64,000 nucleotides of DNA from positions 69,824 through 133,823 of the forward strand of contig JAKLGH010000001.1 in the NCBI GenBank assembly GCA_022710775.1, given 5' to 3'. Position numbers and translations under genes: made by a program. Below are positions 1,249-64,000 of the stretch, piece after piece; position 1 is the first letter of the stretch, and every line of letters starts with the position of its first letter. The DNA comes from Patescibacteria group bacterium. GTDB taxonomy: Bacteria; Patescibacteriota; Minisyncoccia; Minisyncoccales; UBA5738. The notes under the pieces are model-generated. The model worked only from the letters and a program-made list of their open reading frames with translations, had not been told where the DNA came from and did not search any database.

Positions 1249-1345
1249 TGGTGTTGATTAAGCTTGGCCAAAGCGATTCTGCTCTGTCCAATCGATTGAG
1301 CGGTACTGGATTTTACCTTTTGCGCGTCAAAAAGTTTAAAAAATA

Positions 1346-1538
1346 GAATTTATATTTTGCATTGGTATTTCGCCTCCCGGGGTACGAACCCCCGGCGGTG
1401 ACCGAAGGAAATCCCGAAGCATTGAGGGGCGACCAGAGGATGTTTCCTCCGGACTCCTCATTTCTGCGCGCTTTTTGCGGGCAGGAAGCCTAAGGCTTCA
1501 TTTTGTTCCCAAGACTTGCCCGGGGTTTATAAATTAAT
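1346..1538 (-). repeat. GC-rich structured intergenic element, copy A (long form), proximal to the gyrB start
   Basis: Near-identical to 1656..1849 and 23847..24040. Starts (plus strand) with the A/T box GAATTTATATTTT followed by ATTTCGCCTCCCGGGGTACGAACCCCCGG and ends CCCGGGGTTTATAAATTAAT. Orientation is given relative to the downstream minus-strand gene. Boundaries +/-5 nt. Confidence 0.9.
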
Positions 1539-1655
1539 CAAAACCTAAACCAAGAAAAACATAATTAATATGTTTTCTTGAACGCACCGCTGTCCAAGAT
1601 CTGTAAAAATCCTCTTTGATTGATTTTAGCTCAAAATCAAAAACAAGTAAATATC

Positions 1656-1849
1656 GAATTTATATTTTTCTATCGGTATTTCGCCTCCCGGGGTACGAAC
1701 CCCCGGCGGTGACCGAAGGAAATCCCGAAGCATTGAGGGGCGACCAGAGGATGTTTCCTCCGGACTCCTCATTTCTGCGCGCTTTTTGCGGGCAGGAAGC
1801 CTAAGGCTTCATTTTGTTCCCAGGACTTGCCCGGGGTCTACAAATTAAT
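1656..1849 (-). repeat. GC-rich structured intergenic element, copy B (long form), in tandem with copy A
   Basis: Essentially identical to copy C (23847..24040) over ~190 nt. Separated from copy A by a 117-nt AT-rich spacer containing two AT hairpins (about 1551..1580 and 1617..1641). Confidence 0.9.
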
Positions 1850-1961
1850 TAAATATGCCGGCCAAGCGACTCTGCCAAGTTAAAAATGCTTGTGCCAGGT
1901 CTTGTCAGAAGGCTTGAAAACAAAAAAACGCCACTTGCGCCAATTATTACTAATGCTTATG

Positions 1962-2033
1962 AGCCGACGGAGGGATTTGAACCCACGACCTACTGTTTAC
2001 AAAACAGTTGCTCTGCCACTGAGCTACGTCGGC
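1962..2033 (-). tRNA. tRNA-Thr (anticodon UGU), no encoded CCA
   Basis: Reverse complement is GCCGACGTAGCTCAGTGGCAGAGCAACTGTTTTGTAAACAGTAGGTCGTGGGTTCAAATCCCTCCGTCGGCT. It has a 7-bp acceptor stem (GCCGACG/CGTCGGC), a D arm GCTC/GAGC, and an anticodon stem ACTGT/ACAGT with loop TTTGTAA (anticodon TGT). The T loop is GGTTCAAATCC with one U-U mismatch in the T stem. Confidence 0.85.
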
Positions 2034-8076: not shown

Positions 8077-9180
8077 CTATTTCTCCCTGATAGTAAATTT
8101 CTTTTCCAAGCTCTTTAACGTATCCATCACGCCGGTATACTCCAGTTCGCTCATCGGAAGCATCGCCGGCCCGGAGAAACCTTGCCTTCTGATCCATTCG
8201 GCTTTTTGCGAGACATTATTACGGACGTAATCCCAATAAGGATGGTCGAACGCGTCGGCCGGTTCGGTCAGCTTGCCGTTTTGGACGCAGAAAGCCATGC
8301 AGGAAATAATCGGCGGCCCATCAAAATAAGAAATGCATGAATTTCTCTTTACCGGCATCATTGGACCGTTATGAGAACCTCTCATAAAACCCGCCACATA
8401 ATGTCCGATCGTGTAAGGAGACAATATCTCTCCTGTCGCCGGAAAATCCTTTTGAGTGCGGACCAGCATGACCGGATCGTCTTTACCGACGTATTTTCCC
8501 GCCACATTGTGCAATCGCGTGGTTGAAGCAGCGACAACCTGCTCTCCGGATGCCCGCGACCAAACCGATTCCACGATATACTTCCCATTGTCTCTAAGCA
8601 AAACGGCAATATCGTATATCTCCTCGGGTGATTGCAGCTCGATCACTTTATCCTTGCCGGTATGCTCAACATCCATGATCACGAATTTATAACCCTTTTT
8701 CACAGCCGGAGACAATAACAACCCGGCGTTGTGCATCGGATCGCAAAATCCCAGGTATAGCGGCAGGTTGAACGCACCCGGCTCGGTTTTATCGGCACAA
8801 AACATCAAAAAAGACTCAGCTCCCCGTTCCTCGATATCCATCTCAGCTACCTGGGGCCCCATGCCTTTGATATTTCCCGAGAAAGCGTCAACCAGCAAAT
8901 CCTGGCCGGCTCCGTATAATCCCTGTTTTTTAGCCATGTCCGCGCCGGCGTATAAGGCATCGTAACACAATTTATGAATATCCTTGTTTCCGGCGCCTTT
9001 TTTGTGAGTCAGTAATATTGCTATATCGTCTCCGGTAAATTCCACAAAACTATCGATAAACAGTGTTTTTCCGAATTTTTTTACGTGCCCCTCCACCGCA
9101 TCGAATACCTTCTGGCTTGGCTTAATATGGCCGCCAATTGATCCGATATCTGCTTTAATTATACTTAAGGTTACTTTCAT
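8077..9180 (-). CDS. fbp: bifunctional fructose-1,6-bisphosphate aldolase/phosphatase (class V, archaeal-type FBPase)
   Basis: The N-terminus MKVTLSIIKADIGSIGGHIKPS matches the characteristic start of class V FBPase/aldolase. Length is ~367 aa. GPMMPV and DPMHNAGLLLSP regions are present. Confidence 0.88.
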   Translation of the reverse strand: MKVTLSIIKADIGSIGGHIKPSQKVFDAVEGHVKKFGKTLFIDSFVEFTGDDIAILLTHKKGAGNKDIHKLCYDALYAGADMAKKQGLYGAGQDLLVDAFSGNIKGMGPQVAEMDIEERGAESFLMFCADKTEPGAFNLPLYLGFCDPMHNAGLLLSPAVKKGYKFVIMDVEHTGKDKVIELQSPEEIYDIAVLLRDNGKYIVESVWSRASGEQVVAASTTRLHNVAGKYVGKDDPVMLVRTQKDFPATGEILSPYTIGHYVAGFMRGSHNGPMMPVKRNSCISYFDGPPIISCMAFCVQNGKLTEPADAFDHPYWDYVRNNVSQKAEWIRRQGFSGPAMLPMSELEYTGVMDTLKSLEKKFTIREK

Positions 9181-9267: not shown

Positions 9268-11646
9268 TTATAAATTATTTTCCAACTTCGCAAGCTTCAT
9301 GATCGTTTTAATCACAGAATCGGGATTCAACGACATGGACTCAATCCCCTCATCCATGATGAATTGGGCAAAATCAGCATAATCGCTGGGCGCTTGTCCG
9401 CAAATACCGCAGTATTTTCCCCGCGCCTTGCATTTGGCGATGACGGCCCTAATCAGCGATTTCACCGCTTCATTACGCTCATCTCCGATCTTGGCAATTA
9501 GCGAAGAATCGCGGTCCAGTCCAAGCGTTAGCTGCGTCAGATCGTTAGATCCTATCGACATACCGTCGAAAATATCCAAAAATTGATCGGCGAGAACGAC
9601 ATTGGACGGAATTTCGCACATCACCATCACTTTAAGATCATCTGCTCCCTGCATGAGGCCATTTTCCTTCATCACCGCCAAAACTTTCCGCCCCTCTTCC
9701 ACGGTCCGGCAAAAAGGGATCATAGTCCAGATATTGCGCAAACCGAATTCCTCGCGAACTTTCCGTATCGCTGAGCACTCCATGGCAAAGGCCGGAGCAA
9801 ACTCCGGATCGTAATATCGCGACGCGCCGCGCCATCCGATCATCGGATTCGATTCGTTCGGTTCGTAAGCTTCACCGCCCAATAATGATCTGTATTCGTT
9901 GGTCTTAAAATCGGAGAATCTGACAATCACCGGTTTGGGCCAGAAAGCCGCGCCAATCTGCGCCACTCCTTGGGCAAGCTTTGAAACAAAAAATTCCTTT
10001 TTGTCTTTGTATCCGACCGTGATCTCGTCGATCTTTTTCTTCAAAACCGGATCTTTTAACTCGTCAAAATGGTATAACGCAAGCGGATGAACCTTCACTT
10101 TATCCGCGAAGATAAATTCCACGCGCGCCAACCCGACTCCGTCGTTCGGCAAAAAAGAAGATTTGAAAGCGCCATCAGGCGTACCGACATTCAGCATGAT
10201 CTTTACCGGAAGCTTCGGCATTTTCAAAAGGTCGTAGCGTTTAACCTCGTAATCAATCTTTCCCGAAAAAACCCGGCCATTGAGGCCCTGGGTGCAGTCA
10301 ACCGTAATTTCCTGGCCGGTCTTTAAAGATCTGGTTCCGTTTTTAGAACCGACGATACAAGGAATACCCAGCTCCCGCGAAATGATGGCGGCATGGCAGG
10401 TTTTCGACCCTTCGTCAGTAATAATGGCGGCCGCCAGGCGCATGATCGGCGTCCAATCAGGATCGGTCATCTTGGTCACGAGAATCTCTCCTTGCTTAAA
10501 TTCTCTGATCCGCGAAACATCGAGAATTACTCTGGCTTTTCCCTGTCCTATCTTATTGCCAACCGATATGCCCGTAATCACAGGATCCTCTACGCTCCTG
10601 ATATTGTATTCTTCATAAATCTGTCCGATATTGGTGGAATAGATCGTCTCCGGCCGCGCCTGCACGATAAAAAGTTCTCCGGTCTTGCCGTCTTTTGCCC
10701 ACTCGATGTCCTGCGGCGCGCCATAATGCTCTTCGATCAAAGCCGCCCAATTAGCCAATTGCAGCACTTCATCATCGGTAATCGAGTATTCCAGCTGGTC
10801 TTTTTTAGCTACCGGAACTTCTTTTAGGCCGTTTCCGGCGCCGTAAACATATTTTTTGTCCTTACGGCCAAGATTCCTGATTATTATCGGCCGCTTCCCT
10901 TCTTTTAAGGTAGGTTTAAACACATAAAACTGGTCGCTGGTAATTCGGCCCTTAACGATCAGCTCTCCGATCCCGTAGATTGATGAAATCGAAACAACAT
11001 TGCGGAATCCGGTCTCGGTATCGATTGTAAACATTATGCCCGAAGACGCCAGATCCGACCGCACCATTTTCATCACTCCTACCGACAAAGCCACTTTCAT
11101 ATGGTTAAAACCTTTTTCTTCGCGATAAACTATCGCCCGTTCCAAAAACAAAGAAGAAACGCATTTCTTTACCGCCGCCAAAACTCCCGCCGGCCCGGTC
11201 ACATTAAGGTATGTTTCGTGCTGGCCGGCGAACGATGCGTCCGCCAGGTCCTCGGCCGTCGCCGATGACCTGACCGCCACATCCACGTTTTTCGTGCCGT
11301 AAGCATTGGAGAGCGCGGCGTAGCTATCCAAAATGGCCGTTCTTAAATCGGCGGGAAATTTCCCCCCCATAACCAGATCTCGGGCTTTACGCGAAACCGA
11401 CTTAAGCGAATTAAGATTTTTGTGGTCCAGTTTGGAAAAAACCTGTTCCAATTTATCAATAAGGCCGTTGTGTTCCAGGTAATACCAGTAGGCATCGGAT
11501 GTAAAAATGAATCCATTCGGCACTTTGACGCCGCGCGGGGTCAGTTGGGAATACATCTCCCCCAGCGACCCGTTCTTTCCGCCAACCAGAGGAATATCTT
11601 TTTTCGTCACCTGGTCAAACCAAACAATATTTTGTTTTTGCTCCAT
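9268..11646 (-). CDS. ppsA: phosphoenolpyruvate synthase (pyruvate, water dikinase)
   Basis: 792 aa. N-terminal ATP-grasp region VWFDQVTKKDIPLVGGKNGSLGEMY. Phosphohistidine swivel TDEGSKTCHAAIISRELGIPCIVG. The C-terminal PEP-binding barrel reads GMSIGSNDLTQLTLGLDRDS. Confidence 0.95.
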   Translation of the reverse strand: MEQKQNIVWFDQVTKKDIPLVGGKNGSLGEMYSQLTPRGVKVPNGFIFTSDAYWYYLEHNGLIDKLEQVFSKLDHKNLNSLKSVSRKARDLVMGGKFPADLRTAILDSYAALSNAYGTKNVDVAVRSSATAEDLADASFAGQHETYLNVTGPAGVLAAVKKCVSSLFLERAIVYREEKGFNHMKVALSVGVMKMVRSDLASSGIMFTIDTETGFRNVVSISSIYGIGELIVKGRITSDQFYVFKPTLKEGKRPIIIRNLGRKDKKYVYGAGNGLKEVPVAKKDQLEYSITDDEVLQLANWAALIEEHYGAPQDIEWAKDGKTGELFIVQARPETIYSTNIGQIYEEYNIRSVEDPVITGISVGNKIGQGKARVILDVSRIREFKQGEILVTKMTDPDWTPIMRLAAAIITDEGSKTCHAAIISRELGIPCIVGSKNGTRSLKTGQEITVDCTQGLNGRVFSGKIDYEVKRYDLLKMPKLPVKIMLNVGTPDGAFKSSFLPNDGVGLARVEFIFADKVKVHPLALYHFDELKDPVLKKKIDEITVGYKDKKEFFVSKLAQGVAQIGAAFWPKPVIVRFSDFKTNEYRSLLGGEAYEPNESNPMIGWRGASRYYDPEFAPAFAMECSAIRKVREEFGLRNIWTMIPFCRTVEEGRKVLAVMKENGLMQGADDLKVMVMCEIPSNVVLADQFLDIFDGMSIGSNDLTQLTLGLDRDSSLIAKIGDERNEAVKSLIRAVIAKCKARGKYCGICGQAPSDYADFAQFIMDEGIESMSLNPDSVIKTIMKLAKLENNL

Positions 11647-20121: not shown

Positions 20122-23100
20122 TTAAATCGGTTCATTATACGGACTCTGCGGGGTTTTTGATTGCGATTTCGGTTGCGCCGCCGTTTGTTTTTCTTCGACT
20201 GCTTTCAGCCGCTGGACCTTAACCGGATCATTTGAACCCACTACCAGCACCTTCCACAAAAACGGGTCAATCTCAATAATATCGTAGCGTTTGATTTCCT
20301 TGGAAAGCAATGCATTGGCCACCAGATTTTCCACGTTGTTCTGAACCGCCCGCCTCATTGCCCGGCCGCCGAACGCCGGATCAAACCCCAGGTCTCCAAG
20401 CTTCTCGATCAGCTTCTGGCTGATCCTGAACTCAATATCCTTCACGGCCAAGCCTTTCTTTATATCGGCAACCATCAATTGCGCAACCTGCTTCATTTCT
20501 TCTTTATCAAGAGGCCGGTAAAGAACAACTGCGTCAAAGCGGTTTAGGAATTCCGGCTTAAACAATTCGCGCCTAAGCAAATTGTCGATGAATGTTTCCT
20601 TGAAAGCGGCATTCAGCTTGCTGCCCCGGTCCACAGCCTCCTTGATATATTCCGCTCCGGCATTCGATGTGGCAATCATAATGGTTTTTTTGAAATCAAC
20701 TTTCCGGCCCGAACCGTCAGCCATCTCGCCATCGTCAAAAATGCTCAAAAACAGGTTTAAAATATTGGGATGCGCCTTCTCGATCTCGTCGATCAAGATC
20801 AGAGACTGGGGATTCTCCATTACCTGGGTTGTGAAATATCCGGGCGAATTGAGATTGCCGATCAGCTTATCGATCGAATCCATAAGCTGGTACTCGGCCA
20901 TATTGAGCCTGATCATATTCTTCTCCGAACCAAAGTAAACCTTGGCCAGCTGCTTGGCGGTTTCGGTTTTGCCGATACCGGTCGGACCGAGGAACAGGAA
21001 ATTACCGATCGTCCGCTTGCTGGTCTTAATGTCTGCCTGTGCGCGCCTTAAGGCGTTGCAAAGTTCGCTTACCGCCTCTTTCTGGTTGATCAACCCCTGG
21101 TGGATGGTATCTTCCAAATGCATCAGGCGATCCGCTTCGGCATCCTGCTCTTTTTGGTCTCCAATGAATGTTCCTTTCTTCTTTTCGTGGTAAGTGTCTC
21201 GTTCTCCGGGAGGTATAAGTTTCCATTCCGCCGGATCAATTTCAATCACATCGCCCGCTTTAACGGTTCCGGCAAGCACGGCTGTGGCGATAATGTTTTC
21301 CACGTTGTTCTGAACAGCCCGGCGCATGGCCCGGCCGCCGAACGCCGGATCAAAACCCTCGTCGGCCAGCTTGCTGAGCAATTCCGGCGTAATGGCCAGT
21401 TCCATGTTCTTCTCGCGCAGCCCAGCGCGAATATCCTTTAACATCAGTTCGGCTACTTGCTGCATCTCTTCCTTGTTAAGAGGCCGGTAAAGCACCACCG
21501 CATCGAAACGGTTGACGAATTCCGGGCGGAAAACGTTCTTTCTTAATAAATTATCAATGAAAACATCTTTAAAATTGGTAAGCTTGGAACCGCGTTCAAC
21601 CGCCTCTCGAATGTAATCCGCGCCCGCATTGGATGTGGCAATGATAATAGAGTGGCGGAAATCAACTTTCCGGCCCGAACCGTCCACCAGCTCTCCGTCA
21701 TCCAGAATACTCAAAAAAAGGTTAAGCAAATTGGGATGCGCCTTCTCGATCTCGTCGATCAGCAGCAGGCAGAACGGATTTTCCCTGATCGCCGTTGTCA
21801 GATATCCCGGCTGGGTGAGCGACCCGATAAGTTTATCGATCGATTCCAAAAGCTGGTACTCGGCCATATTAAGCCTGATCATATTTTTGTCGGAACCGAA
21901 ATAAACCTTGGCCAGCTGCTTGGCAGTTTCGGTCTTGCCGACGCCCGAAGGCCCCAAGAACAGGAAGTTGCCGATAGTACGCTTTCGTTTTTTTAAATCC
22001 GCCCGGGCGCGCCGCATGGCGTTAGCCAATTCCGAAACCGCTTCTTTCTGGTTGATCAATCCTTGGTGTATCAGATTTTCCATGTTGAGCAGCGTTTCCT
22101 TTTCTTTCTGCGCCGCTGATCCGGCCGGCACCTCGTATTTAGCCGAAAAGAACAGATCGATCTCTTCGGGCAAGATCACGCCTCTAGCCTTGGTAGAACG
22201 GGTCCGTTCGTAAACCATCACGTCATCGAGCAAATCTACGGCCTTCTTGGGAAAAGAAATATCGCCGATGAAATAATCACAGAGCTTGATGATCTCCTGA
22301 AGGCTCAATAAAGGCGCGAAGACGCCGGTCCGAGATTCCCGCCAGACAACCTCTTCCTCCAAAATATGAAGCGTTTCATCAAGACTCGGGCTGGGAACCT
22401 CGATCTTGGCAAAATTACTCGCTACATCCCGATTGGTCTCAATGGATTTATGGTATCCGTCGAAAGAGGTGATTCCGATCAGCCGGAAACCCGGCGTCGT
22501 CAAATACTGGGAAAGAATCCCCGTTATATCAATCTTGGCTACCGCTTCGGCCCCGAAAGATTCACCGACGTAATTATGCATCTGCGGTATGACCAGAATG
22601 ACGTTCTGCGCTTTGATCGCCTCGTTAAAAACTTTTTTTAACCTCACTTCCAACATGCGCTTATCCCCCGCGCTGCCGATCAGAGACGGCATATCAATCT
22701 CTAAAATCCTCATGTACGACAGCTCGCGGAAGCTCATATTCTTCAAGATCTTCTTTGCAAAATTGAAAAGCACGCTTTTCCGTCCGGAACCAACCTCTCC
22801 AACCAAAAGCAGGCAATTGCTATTTTGTTTGATCAAGGTTTCCTCGATATCCTTCACCTGTTTTTCGTGAAGAACAACTCGGCTCCAAAACAAGGGATTG
22901 CGGACCGAAAGATCGCGAGAATACTGGTTTAGGGTCAGGGTATAGCCGCCGACAAGCTCCTGAACCGGGCTCGTCTGGAAGTATAGGCATAAATTCTCCC
23001 GCTCCCAGTATCTGCTCTTTTTCTCTCTGTCAACTCCCAGATTATACATCCACAGCACCGTCTCGATCACATCGTTTCTGACAATTTCCAGCGAATCGAG

Positions 23101-23796: not shown

Positions 23797-23846
23797 GTGG
23801 TTAAAATATTAAATCTGCCGCAACGGGTTCGCCTCGTTTTAGAATC

Positions 23847-24040
23847 GAATATATATTTTTCTATCGGTATTTCGCCTCCCGGGGTACGAACCCCCGGCGG
23901 TGACCGAAGGAAATCCCGAAGCATTGAGGGGCGACCAGAGGATGTTTCCTCCGGACTCCTCATTTCTGCGCGCTTTTTGCGGGCAGGAAGCCTAAGGCTT
24001 CATTTTGTTCCCAGGACTTGCCCGGGGTCTACAAATTAAT
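23847..24040 (-). repeat. GC-rich structured intergenic element, copy C (long form), 5' of the Hsp100-like gene
   Basis: Essentially identical to copy B. It begins 10 nt after the stop of the upstream (minus-strand) gene at 24051. It ends ~50 nt before the ATG at 23796. Confidence 0.9.
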
Positions 24041-24050
24041 AAATTATCGC

Positions 24051-28487: not shown

Positions 28488-29726
28488 TTACTTTTTGAGA
28501 TCTTCTTCGATCTTGGCTAAACGATTGTATTTAGCCAGCCTTTCTCCTCTGGCCGGAGCGCCGGTTTTAATGTAATCAGCCCCGATGCCGCAGGCGAAAT
28601 CGGCTATGAAATCGTCGTTTGTCTCGCCGGATCGGTGGGAAACCATGATTTTCCAGCCGTAACTTCTCGCCAGCGCCGAGGCTTCCAGCGATTCGGATAC
28701 CGTCCCGATCTGGTTAATCTTTAAAATCATCGCGTTACAAGCGTCTTTTTCCTTGGCAATTTTCATCATTTTGGAATTAGTAACCAGCAAATCATCGCCG
28801 ATCACGATGACCTCCGGCTTAAAAGCCGACCATGACGGATAATCCGCTTCGGCGAACGGGTCTTCTATGCCTTCGATCGGGTATTTGGCGATCAGCTGTT
28901 TGTAGTAATCGCCCAACGCCGCGCCGGAAAAATTTCCTATCTTCATTTGATAGGAGTTATCTTTATAAAATTGTGTTGCGGCTACATCCAGAATGATCTT
29001 GATTTGATCCGTGTATCCGCGATTGGCTGCAGCCTCCATGACCAAGCTCAAGGCTTCATCCGCATCCGATATCGACGGCGCGAACCCCCCCTCATCGCCC
29101 AGATTTCCGGAAAGACGGCCGTACTTTTTTACCAGCAATGACTTTAATTCGTGATAGATCTCGGAAGCCATCCGCAAATTTTCTTGAAAACTCCCGCTTT
29201 GGGGAACCAGCATAAATTCCTGAACGTCCAGATCGTTTCCGGCATGCGCGCCACCGTTAATGATATTGAAACCGGCCTTGGGCACTTTGATAGCAGGATT
29301 CTTCGCCAAACCGGCGACATAATAATAAAGCGGCTGGTTTGAGGCCACGGCGGCGGCGCGCGCCACCGCCAGCGATACGCCGCATGTCGCGTTGGCGCCG
29401 AGCCTTCCCTTATTTTCGGTGCCATCGAGCTTTATCATCAAATCATCGATCTCTTTTTGGTTTTTAGCGTCTTTGCCGACAAGCGAAGGCGCAATAATTT
29501 CGTTTACGTTCTTCACGGCTTGCAATACGCCTTTACCATGATAGCGCTCTCCGCCGTCGCGCAATTCGACCGCTTCATTGGTGCCGGTGGACGCTCCCGA
29601 AGGAACGGCAGCCGAAACCCAAATCCCTTCGGTTTCGATCAACACCTCGACAGTCGGATTTCCGCGGGAATCGAGGATTTCCCGGGCTTTTATTTTCTTG
29701 ATTTTAGTCGGACGATTTAGGAACAT
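28488..29726 (-). CDS. eno: enolase
   Basis: [18 protein letters not shown].., [15 protein letters not shown], and the tail [32 protein letters not shown]. The ATG at 29726 ([20 protein letters not shown]) is preferred over the track start at 29780, which overlaps trxB. Confidence 0.95.
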
Positions 29727-30684
29727 TTTTTTTGGCGGAACGGACCGGCTTGGCTTTGGGCGCCGCCGCCAATCCTCCATCCCGGAAATGCTCCGAAATC
29801 GAAAGGACGGCTTTTGCGCCTTCGCCGCAAGCGATCACGATCTGTTTATATTTTATCGAACTTACATCCCCGGCCGCGAACAAACCCGGAGTTTTGGTCT
29901 GGAAGGTGTTGGCATCGTATTTGATCTCGCCGGCTTCGTTCAGCTCGGCCAACATTCCGGCGATCAATGATGCTGGTTTATAGCCAATCTTGACAAACAC
30001 TCCTTCAGCGTCAATCGTGCTTTCCGTTCCGCTTTTCTGATCCAAATACTGAATCCCGGTAACAAATTTATTGCCCAAGATCCGCAAAACTTTAGCATTG
30101 GCAATAACCACTATCTTTTTTGTCGCTTTCGCCTGATCCTGGATCTCGGCTGAGGCTCTTACCCGGTCGGAAGCTTCCAGAATATAGATCTTGGCCGCGA
30201 ACCTCGACAAAAAAAGCGCCGATTCAAAAGCCGAATTTCCGCCGCCCACAACCGCGACCGTGCGGGAAGCAAAAAGCGGGCCGTCGCAAGTGGCGCAATA
30301 GCCAACCCCGCGGCCGATGAATTCCTTTTCCCCCGGAACGCCTAAAAATCTCGGATCGGCACCCGTGGCCAGTAAAACCGCTTTTGATTCATATCGGTTT
30401 TTTTCGGTCTCAACCGAAAAACCTGTTCTCTTCTTGGAAATTTTTACGACATTCTCCATTTCTATACCTACGTCCAGCGATCTGGCATGGTCGCGGAATT
30501 TAGCGATCAAATCCTGGGCTGAAATCCTGCCCATGCCCGGAAAGTTATCGATCTCGACTTCTTTTCTGGCCATTTGTCCGCCGAATTCCCGCGTCAGCAG
30601 CAAAGTGTCCAATTTTTCCCGCTTAGCATAAATAGCCGCCGTCATTCCGGCTGGCCCGCCTCCGATAATGATAAGGTCGCGCAT
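29704..30684 (-). CDS. trxB: thioredoxin-disulfide reductase (low-Mr type) with a basic C-terminal extension
   Basis: DLIIIGGGPAGMTAAIYA (FAD site), the redox-active CATC in GVGYCATCDGPLF, VVGGGNSAFE (NADPH site), and FAAGDV. The ATG at 30684 (MRDLIIIGGG) is preferred, because the track N-terminal extension to 30795 is translated through repeat copy D. Confidence 0.9.
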   Translation of the reverse strand: MRDLIIIGGGPAGMTAAIYAKREKLDTLLLTREFGGQMARKEVEIDNFPGMGRISAQDLIAKFRDHARSLDVGIEMENVVKISKKRTGFSVETEKNRYESKAVLLATGADPRFLGVPGEKEFIGRGVGYCATCDGPLFASRTVAVVGGGNSAFESALFLSRFAAKIYILEASDRVRASAEIQDQAKATKKIVVIANAKVLRILGNKFVTGIQYLDQKSGTESTIDAEGVFVKIGYKPASLIAGMLAELNEAGEIKYDANTFQTKTPGLFAAGDVSSIKYKQIVIACGEGAKAVLSISEHFRDGGLAAAPKAKPVRSAKKNVPKSSD

Positions 30685-30687
30685 ATT

Positions 30688-30803
30688 GAATTTATATTTT
30701 TCATAGGAATTTCGCCTCCCGGGGTAAGAACCCTGGGGCGGCGACCAAAGGATGTTTCCTTTGGAATCCTCATTAATTTGTTCCCCGGAGTCCACAAATT
30801 AAT
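30688..30803 (-). repeat. GC-rich structured intergenic element, copy D (short deletion variant), 5' of trxB
   Basis: Shares both ends and the core with the long copies: GAATTTATATTTTTCATAGGAATTTCGCCTCCCGGGGTA..GATGTTTCCT..CACAAATTAAT. It lacks three internal segments. It fills the whole gap between the nnrD-like stop (30803) and the trxB ATG (30684). Confidence 0.85.
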
Positions 30804-31714
30804 TAATATTTAATTTTAGGGATAATCTGGGCGATTTCATCGATCAAATCGGTCGCGCACATAGACTCGCCGTGTTTGGCGCCCGCAATCTCTCCGGCCG
30901 CCCCGTTGATATAAGCAGCCGCAATGCCAACCGTAAACGGATCGACTCCTCGCGCCATCAGCGCTCCGGCAATTCCCGCCAAAGTATCTCCCAAGCCGCC
31001 CTTGGTCATCAAAGCGTTGCCGGTATGTCCAAGCATCGTCCGTTTTCCATCCGAAAGAATGTCTACCTTGCCTTTCAGGACAATCGTGGTTTGCAGGCGA
31101 GCCGCTTCGTTAAGCACCAGCTCCGTTTTTTGCTCCAAGGTCAAACCGTCGGTTTTTTTACCCGTTAAGACAAAAAATTCGTAGGCATGCGGAGTAAGCA
31201 GGATCGATTTCCCGATAATGACCGGCAGGTTTCCCTCCAGGGCATAAATTCCCTCGGCATCTACGACCGTCGGCACGTTCACTTGCGACAGATACGCTGC
31301 CACCGCTTCCTTTGTTTCCGGCGACCGGCTGATCCCGCCTCCGATCAGCACAGCGCATTTTCCGCGCGAAACCGCTTCCAAAACATTGGTTTCCTCGATC
31401 AGCGTGTCTACGTGCCTTTTTTCAATGATCATGCCGTCAAGGGGAACCGTTGAAAGATTGGGAGAATATCCCGCAATGGCATCGCTGGCGCGCTGGGGAG
31501 CGATCACGCGCACCATATCGCAACCGGCGCGCATGGCTGCCATCGCCGAAAGGTAAGACGCCCCGCAATAATGATGCGAACCTCCGATCACCAGCAAATA
31601 CCCATAATCGTATTTCCGGCTATCAGGATCCCTTTTTTGGTAAATATCCTTAAGCAGCGATTTGTAACGCGCGTTTGCGTTTTTTTCCGCTCTTTTGTTG
31701 TTTTTTTTATTCAT
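30803..31714 (-). CDS. nnrD: NAD(P)H-hydrate dehydratase (YjeF C-terminal / carbohydrate-kinase family)
   Basis: KYDYGYLLVIGGSHHYCGASYLSAMAAMRAGCDMVRV and TKGGLGDTLAGIAGALMA are signatures of the YjeF_C domain. Confidence 0.85.
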   Translation of the reverse strand: MNKKNNKRAEKNANARYKSLLKDIYQKRDPDSRKYDYGYLLVIGGSHHYCGASYLSAMAAMRAGCDMVRVIAPQRASDAIAGYSPNLSTVPLDGMIIEKRHVDTLIEETNVLEAVSRGKCAVLIGGGISRSPETKEAVAAYLSQVNVPTVVDAEGIYALEGNLPVIIGKSILLTPHAYEFFVLTGKKTDGLTLEQKTELVLNEAARLQTTIVLKGKVDILSDGKRTMLGHTGNALMTKGGLGDTLAGIAGALMARGVDPFTVGIAAAYINGAAGEIAGAKHGESMCATDLIDEIAQIIPKIKY

Positions 31715-59880: not shown

Positions 59881-60721
59881 ATCTACAAAAGTAGAAATTG
59901 AATATGCCTATTAGAGTTGTTAAGTGATAGGTATAACAAGTAATCTACAAAAGTAGAAATTGAATATGCCTATTAGAGAAAGAAGAACTAAAAAGATTAC
60001 AATATCTACAAAAGTAGAAATTGAATATGCCTATTAGAGTTTTAGTGCTATTGATGGTTTTTCTATCTACAAAAGTAGAAATTGAATATGCCTATTAGAG
60101 TTTTTAATTCTTTTAAGATGTCTTCATCTACAAAAGTAGAAATTGAATATGCCTATTAGAGAACAGACAAATCGCCAATATTATCTTATCTACAAAAGTA
60201 GAAATTGAATATGCCTATTAGAGTTTACCGGAATCAGGACCCCTCGTTTATCTACAAAAGTAGAAATTGAATATGCCTATTAGAGTGCCAAGAGTCCGGG
60301 CAATCATCTGATCTACAAAAGTAGAAATTGAATATGCCTATTAGAGTTAAAAATTTTTTGAAATATCAGTACAATCTACAAAAGTAGAAATTGAATATGC
60401 CTATTAGAGAAACTGGCGCTCGGAATTCTATGAGATCTACAAAAGTAGAAATTGAATATGCCTATTAGAGTCCCATAAAGGCAATCGGCTGTCGTATATC
60501 TACAAAAGTAGAAATTGAATATGCCTATTAGAGCTTTCGTTAGATGATCAATACTATCAATATCTACAAAAGTAGAAATTGAATATGCCTATTAGAGACC
60601 GCCTTGTCATAAAAACATACGTTATCTACAAAAGTAGAAATTGAATATGCCTATTAGAGTCGCCTACTTGCTATGGCTGATATACATCTACAAAAGTAGA
60701 AATTGAATATGCCTATTAGAG
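59881..60721 (-). CRISPR. CRISPR array: 14 identical 36-nt repeats and 13 spacers of 25-28 nt, Cas12a-type repeat
   Basis: Plus-strand repeat is ATCTACAAAAGTAGAAATTGAATATGCCTATTAGAG. Repeat starts are 59881, 59943, 60004, 60065, 60126, 60188, 60250, 60311, 60374, 60435, 60498, 60562, 60624, 60686. The reverse complement CTCTAATAGGCATATTCAATTTCTACTTTTGTAGAT ends in the Cas12a handle, so transcription runs on the minus strand, as for the cas genes. Confidence 0.97.
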
Positions 60722-61196: not shown

Positions 61197-62171
61197 TTAA
61201 CCGTGGCTCGCTTGTTTTTTTTGCTTCAAAGAAAACTTCGGAAAATCCGAACCGTTCATCACGCAATAATAAAAATCCCGAACATAACAATAAATTTCTT
61301 CCCGATGATCCAAAATCGCCTGCGCAAATATCGCCAGATACTTTTCCTGGCGATCCCAGCCTAATTCCCGCTTTCCGGCTCTTTCCTTAAAATCATCTAC
61401 ATCAATTTGCCTAAGATGATAGGCCTTAACAATCGCTTTATCGATAATACAGCGAAAAGGCTCAATCAAATCGCAAACAAGCGATTTTCTCTGAAAAAAC
61501 AGCCGGTGATAAAACCCTTTATAAGAATCGAAGCCGTATATACCAACCATGCCGTCGATAAAATTGAATAACATGGTATACCCGATATCGAGCAAAACAT
61601 TGCTTACATCGGTTTTGGCTCGCGGCAAGCGGCGTTTCCACCCCATTTCTGAAAAATATTCCTGAAAGAAAAACTTGCTTGCTGACCCTTCAAGTCCCAG
61701 CAAATCATTGCCATTTTTTGCTTCCGCCACTTTTAATTTAATATCCTTAAGGCTTGCCGGGTTTTTGGTCATCTTTTGCTCCAACAGCAATCCAACCTGA
61801 TTATCAATTTTATTCGAAACAAGCTTCTTGGCCATTTCAAGCTCAGCTGCATTATCCCAAGAATATTGCTTTTCCCGCAATAAATAATTACCTTCGGCCG
61901 TCGAGATTATCCGGGCGTAGGCTAAAAAATTTCGGTTGCATAAAAATACGGAAACACCGCATTTTTTGCAATTTCTAACCATCACGCTGGTAAGCGAACA
62001 TTCTCCAATGATAAATACACAAAAAACCTTGTGGCAAGATATCTGGTTCTCGATCTTACCGTTCTTGCATAAACAAATATTGTCATTGGCAATCTTAATT
62101 TTGTCCACATCGATATTCCCGGCGCTCACGAACAATATTTGTTTTTCCCGAAAATCAGGCAGGCTCAGCAT
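61197..62171 (-). CDS. cas1: CRISPR-associated integrase Cas1
   Basis: LGLEGSASKFFFQEYF.., NVLLDIGYTMLFNFI.., GFYHRLFFQRKSLVCDLIEPFRCIID are Cas1 catalytic-domain motifs (E, H, D/E). Confidence 0.93.
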   Translation of the reverse strand: MLSLPDFREKQILFVSAGNIDVDKIKIANDNICLCKNGKIENQISCHKVFCVFIIGECSLTSVMVRNCKKCGVSVFLCNRNFLAYARIISTAEGNYLLREKQYSWDNAAELEMAKKLVSNKIDNQVGLLLEQKMTKNPASLKDIKLKVAEAKNGNDLLGLEGSASKFFFQEYFSEMGWKRRLPRAKTDVSNVLLDIGYTMLFNFIDGMVGIYGFDSYKGFYHRLFFQRKSLVCDLIEPFRCIIDKAIVKAYHLRQIDVDDFKERAGKRELGWDRQEKYLAIFAQAILDHREEIYCYVRDFYYCVMNGSDFPKFSLKQKKQASHG

Positions 62172-62175
62172 ATAA

Positions 62176-62715
62176 TTAGTGGCAAAGCGGCTGGTAAACG
62201 CATTGCAAGCATTTATTTTCGTTAACCGGCCGCGGAATTTCGGGCCGATATTTTTTCATTTTTTCGACAAGCGACAAAAAATGGTTCATTTCTTCCTCAT
62301 CGGGGATAGCTATCTTATAACGTTTATTGTCGGCCAATGATTGAATCGCCAGTGATTTAACCTCGTAACCCATTTCCCGCAAGCAAACCATTTGCGCGTA
62401 AAGCTGGTATTTATAACCGTCAAATATCGTTTTCACTTTGTACTTCCGTTCAACAAGCAACCCGCTTTTAATATCGAAAGTATCAATCTTTCCCATAATC
62501 CCCAGCCGTTCCGAGCAAACTTCCAATCCCTGCAAAACATTCTTAGCGGTCGTATAGGTTCTGTTGTCCACCGCTTCATGCGCAAGCCGTCCAACCGTCT
62601 GCGCCGTCCGATGATAGGTTTTAACGCTAAAATCATCATATACCGAGTGCAAATAGATCGAATAAGGGCAAAAAATAAAATCATTTATCTTGGAAATCTG
62701 TATATAGTCTTCCAT
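62176..62715 (-). CDS. cas4: CRISPR-associated exonuclease Cas4 (RecB-like, 4-Cys)
   Basis: The N-terminal Cys is in INDFIFCPYSIYLH. The nuclease core reads GKIDTFD..LVERKYK. The C-terminal cluster is CLQCVYQPLC. Its ATG overlaps the effector stop (TAATG at 62713..62717). Confidence 0.9.
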   Translation of the reverse strand: MEDYIQISKINDFIFCPYSIYLHSVYDDFSVKTYHRTAQTVGRLAHEAVDNRTYTTAKNVLQGLEVCSERLGIMGKIDTFDIKSGLLVERKYKVKTIFDGYKYQLYAQMVCLREMGYEVKSLAIQSLADNKRYKIAIPDEEEMNHFLSLVEKMKKYRPEIPRPVNENKCLQCVYQPLCH

Positions 62716-64000
62716 TAAACAGTTTTCTGCCTTATTTTAAGATTGTTCGCCATATAATCTACCCAATTTTTTTCTCCCGCAAGCCAAGCATCCCACTCTT
62801 CATTTCGCACAAACAAATCCGCGTTTCTTTTAATATGTTCGCTCATAATAATTCCCTTGCGGGCAATATTATACGCGCCGTTAGCATCGCCATTTTGCGG
62901 GAGTTTTGCACCATTTTTGATCTTACGAGAGTCAAAAAAGTCACCACTCGCACCCCTAACGGGAGAAAGAATAAAGTCGTTGTCTTTTTCATCTTCTCCG
63001 GTGTTGCGGATCTGTTGAATAACATCAATAACAAATCTTAAGCTTTCCCAAGCTGTTCGTTCTTTGTCGAATTTATTCAATTCTTTACCATCTTTAATCT
63101 GCTCTTTGAAAGATTTATTTTTATCAAATCCCTTAAAAATATTTTCTAAATTTTTAACGATATCAATTCTATCCGGGCTCCAATGCTTCTTACCCTCTTT
63201 TTCTGAAAATTTATCGCGATATCTATCCAATTCCGCACCATTTTTTCCGGAATATAAAATCCATTCTTTACCAATATTCGCGTCTTTATATTTGAAATAA
63301 TAATCCTTACCATCAAAACCAAAATCACTGAATAAATCAAAAATTTGCTCTTTAATTTCTGACCCCTTTTTAATAGATATTGTTTTGTGCCAGCCCGTAA
63401 TTGGATCAGTGGCTGAGGTAAAGCTTGGATTAGTATAAAACATAATCCCAAATTGCTTGCCTTTAATATCGTTAAAATCATGAACTGGCGGAGTAAACTG
63501 CAAGGCATTATCAACCGAAGCCATTTCCCCATCTTTAGCGCTTTTATCAACAAGAAAATTCAATTTTTTAGCCAAGGCAAGTTCAAGTTTTTGGTAAACC
63601 TGTTTTTCAATTTTCTGCCGCCCGCGCTTGAAGCCGATATTTAAATCCTCAAGAATAATAAGCGCGGGAGTTTCGCGAAAACCTTTTTTCCTGTCGCCCT
63701 CGTTGTAAACCGCCAAATCGACAATTTTTCTTACAACTTGCGAAATATATCCATCTTTTAAATCTTTTATATTGCCGATTGTCGTCCAATTTTTGCGCGC
63801 CAAGTCGCGATCGCCTTGTTTTATGTCCAACTTTTCCCAATAATTTTGCTTATTTATTATATTAAAACTACCCTGCTCTAAAATTTCTCCCCTTTGATTT
63901 ACAAGAGAATAGTAAGCAAGGTTTTTTTCGCCTCTGTCAATTCCGAGAAATAGCTGGTTTTTGGTTTCTACAATAACTTGATTCACTAAATCATTAATTC
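62715..64000 (-). CDS. cas12a: Cas12a (Cpf1)-like type V-A effector, C-terminal ~428 codons (5' part lies beyond the right edge of the window)
   Basis: The frame stays open to position 64000; the track M at 63986 is an internal GTG. RuvC-I is [17 protein letters not shown]. RuvC-II is [28 protein letters not shown]. The Nuc-region reads [17 protein letters not shown]. RuvC-III is [17 protein letters not shown]. It is collinear with FnCas12a (SIDRGERHLAYYTL / [26 protein letters not shown] / LISPVADVNGNFFDSR / QDADANGAYHIGLKG). No HNH domain lies between RuvC-II and RuvC-III. Confidence 0.93.
   Translation of the reverse strand, partial: [427 protein letters not shown]

What the first reader, a model, noticed from the sequence alone, without database searches (positions are those of the whole stretch)
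30688..30803. Short variant of the element keeps the core helices with compensatory base changes
Copy D reads, in gene orientation: AUUAAUUUGUGGACUCCGGGGAACAAAUUAAUGAGGAUUCCAAAGGAAACAUCCUUUGGUCGCCGCCCCAGGGUUCUUACCCCGGGAGGCGAAAUUCCUAUGAAAAAUAUAAAUUCAAU-AUG. It lacks three internal segments of the long form: CAAGUCCUGG, the GAAGCC..GCGCAGA block, and CCUCAAUGC..GGUCAC. It retains both ends and two helices. The central hairpin changes from CCGGAGGA-AACA-UCCUCUGG to CCAAAGGA-AACA-UCCUUUGG. Two stem pairs switch (G-U to A-U and G-C to A-U) while the loop and pairing are preserved. The 3' hairpin keeps GGG-UUCKUA-CCC and the UCGCC/GGCGA closing helix. Deletions confined to peripheral hairpins, together with compensatory substitutions in a core stem, are what a functional RNA fold predicts. 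They are not what a mere DNA repeat predicts. The track ORF start for trxB (30795) is translated straight through this element and is therefore probably wrong.
Basis: seen in the sequence. Interest (0 to 1): 0.6.

Follow-up and report, generated by a model that had tools for sequence, protein, structure and literature searches.

The report
Truncated copy of a structured mobile repeat
The 117-base stretch in front of trxB is a shortened copy of a small hairpin-rich mobile DNA element that has spread through the intergenic regions of this tiny candidate-phyla-radiation (Paceibacteria-type) genome and its relatives, not a regulator dedicated to trxB.

Summary
Copy D (30685-30801, minus strand) is a short form of the A/B/C element. 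It lacks the three stated segments, keeps the central hairpin with one truly compensatory pair change, and keeps the UCGCC/GGCGA-closed 3' hairpin. The trxB start at GTG 30795 is wrong; ATG 30684 is the start.

The fold is conserved with covariation across 13 distinct copies from this genome and other Paceibacteria-like contigs. Yet the element is also a mobile repeat. Orthologous sites in close relatives are empty, and two sister genomes carry different copies at different points of one intergenic region. Neighbouring genes are unrelated, and orientation relative to genes is mixed.

Every clear copy sits directly 3' of a flank pentamer T[T/G]NAT and ends in its own TYNAY, mostly TYNAT. There is no target duplication and no consistent terminal inverted repeat, but there are hairpins near both ends. 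That is the junction pattern of IS200/IS605-type non-autonomous elements (PATEs) and REP-like repeats moved by Y1/HUH transposases.

No transposase or TnpB was found in the sequence available, so family membership stays inferred. No Rfam family matches. D belongs to a different sublineage from A-C and has lost its left-end hairpin.

The parts
30685..30801 (-). Copy D, the short form (117 nt): left-end stem, core hairpin, right-end hairpin and AU-rich tail.
   Evidence: Model R1 scores it 101 bits. Boundaries come from the junction comparison.
30802..30806 (-). Flank pentamer TTAAT abutting D's left end. It overlaps the TAA stop (30803-30805) of the upstream NAD(P)H-hydrate dehydratase gene.
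   Evidence: The empty ortholog L017 has TTGAT at the same place.
30775..30800 (-). D's left-end stem AAUUUGU/ACAAAUU around a remnant loop. The left-end hairpin of the long form is deleted here.
   Evidence: Minimum-free-energy fold; alignments.
30745..30764 (-). Central hairpin CCAAAGGA-AACA-UCCUUUGG. It is preceded by the conserved AAUGAGGAUU (30765-30774).
   Evidence: helix 1: 98% of cells paired; pair 16-30 is A-U in 8 rows and G-C in 5.
30712..30744 (-). Right-end hairpin closed by UCGCC/GGCGA.
   Evidence: helices 2 and 3; five pairs change on both sides.
30685..30711 (-). Unpaired AU-rich tail AAUUCCUAUGAAAAAUAUAAAUUCAAU, ending in the element's own terminal motif TCAAT. It contains a -10-like TATAAA 6 nt before the trxB ATG.
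   Evidence: The tail is conserved in all subfamilies and in a remote copy in L037.
29704..30684 (-). trxB (thioredoxin reductase) with its corrected start at ATG 30684 (326 aa). The GTG 30795 start lies inside the element.
23844..24038 (-). Copy C, long form (195 nt). It lies between a 169-aa membrane-protein gene and the 1224-aa double-AAA+ Clp-like gene. Its flank pentamer is TTTAT (24039-24043).
   Evidence: The site is empty in L018.
1653..1847 (-). Copy B, long form (195 nt), downstream of tRNA-Thr. Its flank pentamer is TTAAT (1848-1852).
1343..1536 (-). Copy A, long form (194 nt). It lies 116 nt downstream of B and 93 nt upstream of the gyrB ATG (1249). Its flank pentamer is TTGAT (1537-1541).

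Best explanation
D is a decayed, shortened copy of a family of small (about 117-230 nt) non-autonomous mobile elements. The family populates intergenic DNA of this Paceibacteria-type (candidate phyla radiation) genome and related genomes.

An intact element has five parts:
- a left end with a hairpin preceded by G-T-A-G-A;
- optional extra hairpins;
- a strongly conserved core (AAUGAGGA-N-UCC plus an 8-bp hairpin);
- a right-end hairpin closed by UCGCC/GGCGA;
- a roughly 28-nt AU-rich tail.

The element inserts directly 3' of a T-T-N-A-T pentamer without duplicating the target, and it ends in its own related motif T-Y-N-A-T.

The most likely mechanism, which is inferred and not shown, is single-strand 'peel and paste' transposition. 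A Y1/HUH transposase encoded elsewhere in the genome (an IS200/IS605 TnpA or a REP-associated relative) would recognise the end hairpins on one DNA strand. That would explain why base pairing is preserved while the stem sequences drift.

Because most copies lie in the sense orientation between genes, they are probably also transcribed as part of mRNAs. There the same hairpins and the unstructured AU-rich tail may affect mRNA stability or downstream initiation. In D, the tail delivers the trxB ATG with no Shine-Dalgarno sequence. These RNA effects are side effects or secondary adaptations, not a trxB-specific control.
For: Copy number and spread:
- There are four copies in the 64-kb window and a fifth, diverged copy E just outside it (L033:17809-18035).
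- Further copies occur in a Paceibacterota MAG and in metagenome contigs, at about one per 8-16 kb.

Insertion polymorphism:
- The trxB site is empty in L017 (13-nt spacer) and L028 (4-nt spacer). The clp site is empty in L018.
- L018 has a roughly 128-nt copy where L021 has GTGATT|TTGG. L021 has a different 145-nt copy about 120 nt further on, where L018 is empty.

Junction pattern:
- All 12 clear copies have T[T/G]NAT immediately 5' of the element. That motif occurs at 1.6% of intergenic positions.
- The middle base of the pentamer differs among the near-identical copies A, B and C, so it is flank and not part of the element.
- The pentamer pre-exists in two empty sites.
- Ten of the 11 complete copies end in TYNAT; L010 ends in TCGAC.
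- The left pentamer and the right end differ within each copy, so there is no target duplication. Subfamily 2 has no terminal inverted repeat.

Fold conservation:
- In the core and right end, 95.3% of cells are paired against 86.2% in shuffles. Seven pairs change on both sides. No shuffle in 500 reaches the observed score on four of five measures, and one does on the fifth (pairs with a change on both sides). Slid controls pair at 37-53%.
- In the 5' hairpins, copy E contributes four double changes.
- The right-end stem has entirely different sequences in different subfamilies.

Context:
- The neighbouring genes have no common theme: gyrB, clp-like, trxB, gatB, glutamate synthase, an FtsX permease, Fic, RecQ and UPF0182.
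- Orientation relative to neighbouring genes is mixed.

Literature:
- Published IS200/IS605 elements show this same grammar: a flank motif such as TTGAT, an element-encoded end motif differing from it at a few positions, subterminal hairpins, and ORF-less PATEs mobilised in trans (PMC2806898, PMC10055086, 10.1101/2023.11.20.567912).

A second element family with different internal sequence shows a similar junction pattern, a TTNAT-type flank pentamer and a TTNAT-like end, in this genome and in relatives.
Against: - No Y1 transposase, REP-associated transposase or TnpB was found. This covers 40 ORFs scanned against Pfam and the Pfam-annotated gene lists of about 250 kb of related loci.
- The most conserved part is the central core and the tail, not the end hairpins. 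A pure transposase-recognition role does not explain that.
- The right-end hairpin sits about 28 nt from the element end. I recall a shorter distance in IS608, but that comes from memory.
- GC skew on the element strand is positive in 7 of 9 loci but negative in 2, so there is no strict replication-strand rule.
- The very divergent L021 copy does not show a clean TTNAT flank.
- Base pairing between the flank or end motifs and internal DNA 'guide' sequences, which the IS200/IS605 model predicts, was not established.
Confidence: 0.55

Rival explanations
1. The element is a cis-acting regulatory RNA (riboswitch, leader or thermometer) in the 5' UTR of the downstream gene. D would be a minimal functional version controlling trxB.
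For: - The copies in the window all lie upstream of and co-oriented with a gene.
- The fold is conserved with covariation.
- G.U pairs (10 cells) outnumber A.C (4 cells) on the sense strand, and there is an invariant G.U in the first hairpin.
Against: - The downstream genes are unrelated.
- Orthologous genes in relatives with 76-86% identical TrxB lack the element.
- L014's copy is antisense to both neighbours. L015's faces a convergent gene. L013's two copies point away from their upstream neighbours Fic and RecQ.
- The element has no terminator or sequestered ribosome-binding site. In D, the ATG follows an unpaired tail.
- No Rfam family matches.
Confidence: 0.05
2. The mobile element carries a trans-acting RNA gene. 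This could be a guide RNA of the omega/reRNA type, whose scaffold is the conserved core, right-end hairpin and tail, and whose guide is the flank just after TYNAT. It could also be another protein-binding small RNA. That function would be what keeps the core conserved.
For: - The core and tail are more conserved than the end hairpins across subfamilies.
- The left-flank motif TTNAT resembles the TTGAT motif shared by ISDra2 TnpA and TnpB.
- The literature states that PATEs often encode omega RNAs used in trans.
- The genome does use an RNA-guided Cas12-family nuclease: a Cas12a locus lies in the window.
Against: - No tnpB was found in any locus.
- No Rfam RNA family reaches threshold.
- The pseudoknot that defines TnpB/Cas12 guide scaffolds pairs the last nucleotides before the guide with the 5' region. 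It has no consistent counterpart here. An 8-bp 5'-to-tail helix exists only in subfamily 1 and is absent in subfamily 2.
- The third base of the terminal motif varies freely among near-identical copies.
Confidence: 0.15
3. The elements persist because they act at the mRNA or transcription level wherever they land. They would be REP/BOX-like 3'-end stabilisers or insulators for the upstream gene, plus an outward promoter or unstructured initiation platform (the tail) for the downstream gene.
For: - Many copies start 0-12 nt after the stop codon of a co-oriented upstream gene (D, C, L003, L018).
- The tail always contains a -10-like TATAAA, TATATT or TATAAT hexamer 5-7 nt from the element end, and in D the trxB ATG follows at that distance.
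- Relatives have only 4-13 nt between the two genes, so the insertion must have replaced translational coupling.
Against: - There is no -35-like hexamer 16-18 nt upstream of the -10-like hexamer (read from the sequences); the consensus scan of the A/B region called no promoter in either copy's tail.
- No U-tract follows any hairpin, so the element is not an intrinsic terminator.
- Copies facing convergent or antisense genes (L014, L015) cannot serve this role.
- None of this explains the flank-motif specificity or the mobility.
Confidence: 0.15
4. The element is a conventional cut-and-paste MITE with terminal inverted repeats and a short AT or TA target duplication.
For: - Subfamily 1 ends are weakly complementary (AATTTGTA versus TATAAATT).
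- Both junctions are preceded by AT.
- Short direct repeats are seen at the two L018/L021 events (TGATT; about 9 nt, imperfect).
Against: - Subfamily 2 has no inverted termini at all.
- The flanking pentamers at left and right differ within every copy.
- No identical duplication exists in A-E.
- The conserved requirement is a 5-nt motif on the left side only.
Confidence: 0.05

Closest known systems
Palindrome-associated transposable elements (PATEs), the ORF-less derivatives of IS200/IS605 insertion sequences
   Same: - Small, ORF-less and multi-copy.
- Hairpins near both ends on one strand.
- Inserted directly 3' of a specific pentamer of the TTGAT/TTTAT type with no target duplication.
- An element-encoded end motif resembling the flank motif.
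- No consistent terminal inverted repeats.
- Mobilised in trans.
   Different: - No cognate TnpA or TnpB was seen in the available sequence.
- There is a strongly conserved central core hairpin and a long AU-rich tail between the right hairpin and the end.
- Optional modular hairpins are present.
- The host is a candidate-phyla-radiation bacterium with a very small genome.
REP/BIME/REPIN repeats mobilised by REP-associated tyrosine transposases (comparison from memory of the literature)
   Same: - Intergenic, high-copy and mosaic or modular.
- Stem-loops preceded by a conserved GTAG-like tetranucleotide. Here G-T-A-G-A sits just 5' of the left hairpin, and a related motif forms the loop and 3' arm of the right hairpin.
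- Often located right after stop codons.
   Different: - REPs are 20-40-nt palindromes, usually in inverted pairs. This element is a 117-230-nt ordered array of different hairpins with defined left and right ends and a flank motif.
TnpB omega (re)RNA of IS200/IS605, for example ISDra2
   Same: - A structured RNA of about 116-150 nt encoded at the right end of the transposon.
- The right-end hairpin is read both as DNA and as RNA.
- The flank motif TTGAT is shared with the nuclease.
   Different: - No tnpB is present.
- The defining pseudoknot was not found consistently.
- No Rfam family reached threshold for any copy scanned; whether Rfam holds models of guide-RNA scaffolds was not checked.
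Pneumococcal BOX and Neisseria Correia elements (from memory)
   Same: - Modular, structured intergenic repeats that are co-transcribed with neighbouring genes and can alter their expression.
   Different: - They belong to unrelated sequence families.
- Correia elements have inverted repeats and a TA duplication.
- BOX elements have no defined insertion motif.
Rfam pemK RNA (RF02913) and Clostridiales-2 RNA (RF02937)
   Same: - These are the best sub-threshold Rfam matches.
- pemK's 3' part, GGUGAAAUUCCCAUGA, resembles D's GGCGAAAUUCCUAUGA after a hairpin.
- Clostridiales-2 has a similar two-hairpin layout.
   Different: - The scores are 19.7 bits against a threshold of 34.8, and 15 bits against 58.6.
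- The E-values of 0.1-0.4 hold only for searches of 171 and 211 nt, so neither match is significant.

Membership tests
IS200/IS605-type non-autonomous element (PATE) | Insertion directly 3' of a conserved tetra- or pentanucleotide that abuts the left end, with no target-site duplication. | tested here: met
   All 12 clear copies have T[T/G]NAT at the junction, against a background of 1.6% per intergenic position. The motif is present once in the empty sites of L021 and L017. The left and right pentamers differ within each copy. Divergent L021 is unclear.
IS200/IS605-type non-autonomous element (PATE) | An element-encoded motif at the right boundary that is related to the flank motif. | tested here: met
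   Ten of 11 complete copies end in T[C/T]NAT (TCGAT, TCAAT, TCTAT, TTGAT, TTAAT); L010 ends in TCGAC. Sequence beyond the end is unrelated among A, B, C, D and E.
IS200/IS605-type non-autonomous element (PATE) | Imperfect hairpins near both ends on the same strand, and no terminal inverted repeats. | tested here: met
   Left and right hairpins have covariation. There are no inverted termini in subfamily 2 and only a weak 8-nt complementarity in subfamily 1. D itself has lost the left hairpin.
IS200/IS605-type non-autonomous element (PATE) | A Y1/HUH transposase (TnpA) in the same genome, and autonomous copies with the same ends. | not testable with these tools
   None was found among 40 ORFs scanned or in the Pfam-annotated gene lists of the loci.
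IS200/IS605-type non-autonomous element (PATE) | Internal DNA 'guide' bases that pair with the flank and end motifs and covary with them. | not tested
   The candidate G-T-A-G-A 5' of the left hairpin could pair with TTTAT, but I could not verify the pairing rule, and the motifs vary too little here.
IS200/IS605-type non-autonomous element (PATE) | Active strand on the lagging-strand template (orientation bias relative to replication). | tested here: inconclusive
   GC skew on the element strand is positive in 7 loci and negative in 2. The measure is confounded by gene orientation.
TnpB omega/reRNA | Encoded at the 3' end of tnpB and the right end, or used in trans by a TnpB in the same genome. 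| tested here: not met
   No OrfB_IS605-type protein occurs next to any copy or anywhere in the window. Use in trans is not testable.
TnpB omega/reRNA | A pseudoknot between the nucleotides just 5' of the guide and the 5' part of the scaffold. | tested here: inconclusive
   The feature is taken from PMC10097598. A 5'-to-tail helix is predicted only in subfamily 1 and none in subfamily 2.
Cis-regulatory 5' UTR RNA (riboswitch or leader) | Consistent position upstream of, and co-oriented with, one functional class of genes, conserved at orthologous loci. | tested here: not met
   The neighbours are unrelated. The element is absent at orthologous sites. Some copies are antisense or convergent.
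Any Rfam 15 family | A score at or above the family's gathering threshold. | tested here: not met
   Only tRNA-Thr passes in the window. E-value scans of A/B, D and L013a give nothing above threshold.
TIR-type MITE | Terminal inverted repeats plus a fixed-length target-site duplication. | tested here: not met

The most novel reading that the evidence does not exclude
The conserved core, right hairpin and tail would be the scaffold of a guide-type RNA carried by ORF-less transposon relics in candidate-phyla-radiation bacteria. It would be read by an as-yet unrecognised TnpB/Cas12-like partner. The guide would be the sequence just beyond TYNAT; in D, that is the first codons of trxB. The TTNAT flank would be the nuclease's adjacent motif. 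This would be a new omega-RNA class operating entirely in trans in ultra-small genomes.
Probability: 0.08. Interest if true: 0.75.

Novelty: new member of a known kind. Interest (0 to 1): 0.4.

Why it matters
Candidate-phyla-radiation genomes are about 1 Mb and are usually described as streamlined. Here a structured non-autonomous element, and at least one sister family, occupies roughly one intergenic region per 8-16 kb. It splits operons and misleads gene callers: trxB is extended by 37 codons in the public entry.

Recognising the family has three practical uses:
- It corrects gene starts.
- It explains many 'orphan' GC-rich intergenic hairpins in these genomes, which could be mistaken for riboswitches.
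- It supplies a covariance model and a junction rule (TTNAT | element ... TYNAT |) for finding the responsible transposase.

The finding also illustrates a general caution. Covariation alone does not separate a functional RNA from hairpins selected in single-stranded transposon DNA.

Tried and rejected
- **Rfam.** The gathering scan of the window and E-value scans of A/B, D and L013a gave only tRNA and sub-threshold noise: pemK, Clostridiales-2 and Hairpin-meta1.
- **ARAGORN.** No tmRNA or tRNA-like call was made in the elements, despite the T-loop-like GGUUCGUACC.
- **Spurious ORFs as a census.** I searched the protein database with the spurious ORFs that read through the element (MRIPKETSFGR...). 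Only one hit came back, so this gave no census. A coding role is rejected: the start codon is not conserved (TTG, CTG or none in L018, L021 and E), and the compensatory stem changes give non-conservative residue changes.
- **Other collections.** A viral-contig pattern scan and phage and plasmid BLAST gave no match.
- **Transposase hunt.** Pfam scans of window and locus ORFs found none.
- **CRISPR spacers against all held loci.** No match.
- **Similarity to the Cas12a repeat.** The left end shares UUUGUAGA with it and the tail shares AUAUUCAAU. I judged this to be chance in AT-rich sequence.
- **Strand choice by folding energy.** Both strands fold equally well, z about -4. G.U versus A.C counts favour the sense strand only weakly, 10 to 4.
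- **Global MAFFT alignment of L018 against L021.** It failed because of the reciprocal insertions and was replaced by BLAST blocks.
- **More distant TrxB-syntenic loci (60% identity).** These yielded only one remote copy.

Full report
**Observation**

Repeat finding and alignment identify three long copies, all on the minus strand. They are A (1343-1536), B (1653-1847) and C (23844-24038); A is 91% and C 99% identical to B. Copy D is the short form at 30685-30801.

D lacks three segments:
- CAAGTCCTGG;
- the GAAGCC..GCGCAGA block, which holds two hairpins;
- a 30-nt CCTCAATGC..GGTCAC module.

D keeps both termini, the central hairpin and the 3' hairpin closed by UCGCC/GGCGA.

The central stem differs from A-C at two pairs. 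One change is one-sided (G.U to A-U) and one is truly compensatory (G-C to A-U). In the pairing register shared by the family, D's 3' hairpin has two mismatches. In its own best register it has one A.C.

**The trxB start**

The ORF from GTG 30795 reads through the element. ATG 30684 gives MRDLIIIGGGPAG.

The closest TrxB relatives (P0002-P0004 and P0006, 76-86% identical) are 325-328 aa and begin MRDL at the corresponding ATG. Only the database entry from this very genome is 363 aa.

**A wider family**

Pattern scans of public collections found homologues in two places:
- a Paceibacterota MAG (L001, the same contig as L003);
- metagenome contigs L010, L013 (two copies), L014 and L015.

I built a covariance model of the core, 3' hairpin and tail (R1). 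It recovered all of these copies. It also found new copies in loci fetched around TrxB homologues and around window proteins:
- L018, which recurs in L019 and L020;
- a very divergent copy in L021-L025;
- a fifth copy, E, from the window's own genome, just beyond the left edge of the window (L033:17809-18035);
- a remote copy in L037.

In all there are 13 distinct sequences.

No Rfam family matches any of them. Nothing similar exists in the phage, plasmid or viral collections.

**Architecture and covariation**

The minimal architecture has three hairpins and a tail:
- a left hairpin preceded by G-T-A-G-A;
- the conserved stretch AAUGAGGA-N-UCC, running into an 8-bp central hairpin;
- a long right hairpin closed by UCGCC/GGCGA;
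- an unpaired AU-rich tail of about 28 nt.

Optional modules are two extra 5' hairpins and a 30-nt insert (CAAUGC..CCUUCGG). The insert occurs in both subfamilies (A-C and E, and L013b).

On the model-based alignment, 95.3% of pair cells are standard pairs, against 86.2% in shuffles. Seven of 20 pairs change on both sides. No shuffle in 500 reaches the observed score on four of the five measures, and one does on the fifth. Slid-register controls pair at 37-53%.

The right stem has entirely different sequences in different subfamilies. Examples are CCGGGG/CCCCGG, GGCGUGGU/ACCACGUC and CUGCGUGGU/ACCACGCAG. In L021 the closing helix becomes UCGAC/GUCGA.

In the 5' hairpins, copy E alone contributes four double compensatory changes relative to A-C.

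The fold is therefore under selection on one strand. G.U outnumbers A.C by 10 cells to 4, and the first hairpin has an invariant G.U. This favours the sense strand only modestly. Folding energies do not separate the strands.

**Mobility**

Gene order around trxB is conserved in relatives: FtsZ, NAD(P)H-hydrate dehydratase, TrxB, enolase, and onward to glutamate synthase and the Clp-like AAA+ protein. The elements are not conserved with it.
- The dehydratase-trxB spacer is 13 nt in L017 and 4 nt in L028.
- The site of copy C is a 60-nt spacer in L018.
- L018 and L021, whose TrxB proteins are each about 77% identical to the window's, share an intergenic region upstream of glutamate synthase.
- In that region, L018 has a roughly 128-nt copy inserted where L021 reads GTGATT|TTGG.
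- L021 has a different, divergent 145-nt copy about 120 nt further downstream, where L018 is uninterrupted.
- The window has no copy in that region at all.

D is about 80% identical to A-C but 86% identical to L010 from another sample. L010 shares D's A-U pairs and its lack of the 30-nt module. So D belongs to a separate sublineage and is not a deletion product of A-C.

**Junction grammar**

All 12 clear copies are immediately preceded by T[T/G]NAT. Seven have TTTAT, two TTGAT, two TTAAT and one GTGAT.

That motif occupies 1.6% of intergenic positions. Its middle base differs among the near-identical copies A, B and C. It also pre-exists in the empty sites. For D it overlaps the upstream gene's stop codon, and L017 has TTGAT at that spot. 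The pentamer is therefore target sequence and not part of the element.

Ten of the 11 complete copies end in their own T[C/T]NAT; L010 ends in TCGAC. Beyond that end, the flanks are unrelated.

The left and right pentamers differ within every copy, so there is no target duplication. Subfamily 2 has no inverted termini.

A second family of GC-rich structured elements has different internal sequence and a similar junction pattern (a TTNAT-type flank pentamer; TTCAT in L017). It occurs in this genome (L033:16184-16373), in L017 and in L037.

**Context**

The neighbouring genes have no common theme. They include gyrB, a double-AAA+ Clp-like gene, trxB, gatB, glutamate synthase, an FtsX-type permease, Fic, RecQ, UPF0182 and an FAD oxidoreductase.

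The copies in the window are co-oriented with their neighbours, but nearly all genes there share that strand. Elsewhere the pattern breaks:
- L014's copy is antisense to both neighbours.
- L015's copy faces a convergent gene.
- L013's two copies point away from their upstream neighbours.

This excludes a dedicated 5' UTR regulator.

**Comparison with known systems**

The junction grammar is the one described for IS200/IS605 elements and their ORF-less PATE derivatives:
- insertion 3' of a pentamer such as TTGAT, with no duplication;
- an element-encoded end motif differing from the flank motif at a few positions;
- subterminal hairpins recognised as single-stranded DNA by a Y1/HUH TnpA;
- mobilisation in trans.

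The sources are PMC2806898, PMC10055086 and 10.1101/2023.11.20.567912. REP/BIME repeats moved by related transposases are a second analogue, which I recall from memory.

I found no transposase or TnpB. This covers 40 ORFs scanned against Pfam and the annotated gene lists of about 250 kb of related loci. Membership is therefore inferred from the ends only.

The strong conservation of the central core and the tail is not explained by end recognition. It leaves room for an RNA-level role.

The TnpB omega-RNA model was considered. Its defining pseudoknot (PMC10097598) has no consistent counterpart here. A 5'-to-tail helix is predicted only in subfamily 1.

The tail always carries a -10-like hexamer 5-7 nt from the element end, and in D the trxB ATG follows at that distance. 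No -35-like hexamer lies upstream of it (read from the sequences; the consensus scan of the A/B region called no promoter in the tails).

**Verdict**

D is a truncated member of a previously uncatalogued family of structured, non-autonomous mobile elements. The family most likely belongs to the Y1-transposase (IS200/IS605 or REP-like) class.

What is shown:
- the family itself;
- its fold conservation;
- its insertion polymorphism;
- its junction motif;
- the wrong trxB start.

What is inferred:
- the transposition mechanism;
- any RNA-level effect.

Noticed in passing
window 59881-60721 (array); 61197-64000 (cas genes, minus strand); L035:5508-9457: There is a type V-A CRISPR-Cas12a locus. 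It has 14 repeats of 36 nt (transcribed strand CTCTAATAGGCATATTCAATTTCTACTTTTGTAGAT) and 13 spacers of 25-28 nt, with cas2, cas1, cas4 and cas12a alongside. In the fuller contig, cas12a is called as two ORFs (a 274-aa REC1 part and a 1004-aa part), which suggests a frameshift, an interruption or a mis-call. No spacer matches any held locus.
   Followed up: partly
L033:16184-16373 (same genome, outside the window); L017 about 8290-8485 (minus strand); L037 about 11020-11190 (minus strand): A second family of GC-rich structured intergenic elements has a similar junction pattern: a TTNAT-type flank pentamer (TTCAT in L017), a left end containing GGCAGAA[T/G]ACCCC (GCCAGAATACC in L037), and a TTNAT-like right end. 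Its internal sequence is different. In L037 the copies are tandem, and the last 15 bases of trxB (GGCGGGTAAATAAAC) are repeated with them.
   Followed up: partly
window 20302-20914 versus 21271-21880: The 1224-aa Clp-like gene downstream of copy C contains an internal duplication at the DNA level (72-77% identity). This matches its two AAA_2/ClpB_D2-small modules.
   Followed up: no
window 1927-1941 and 1961-2033 (minus strand): tRNA-Thr (UGU) is followed by a terminator-like hairpin with a U-tract. Copies B and A were inserted between this terminator and gyrB.
   Followed up: no
L035:5140-5228: Model R1 gives a weak match (25 bits, E 0.0035) about 280 nt upstream of the first cas12a ORF. It is a GGUACAGGGG-UUAG-ACCCCUGUACC hairpin followed by an A-rich tail. 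It is probably unrelated, or only a right-end-like relic.
   Followed up: no
window 30701-30763 (minus strand): There is a sub-threshold resemblance to the Rfam pemK motif (19.7 bits against a threshold of 34.8). The 3' part GGCGAAAUUCCUAUGA resembles the pemK consensus GGUGAAAUUCCCAUGA. It is not significant, but it is worth a look if pemK RNAs prove to be transposon ends.
   Followed up: partly
L022:7560-9044: One strain variant of the L021 species has no glutamate synthase gene called in the syntenic gap downstream of the element copy. This could be a disruption or an assembly difference.
   Followed up: no
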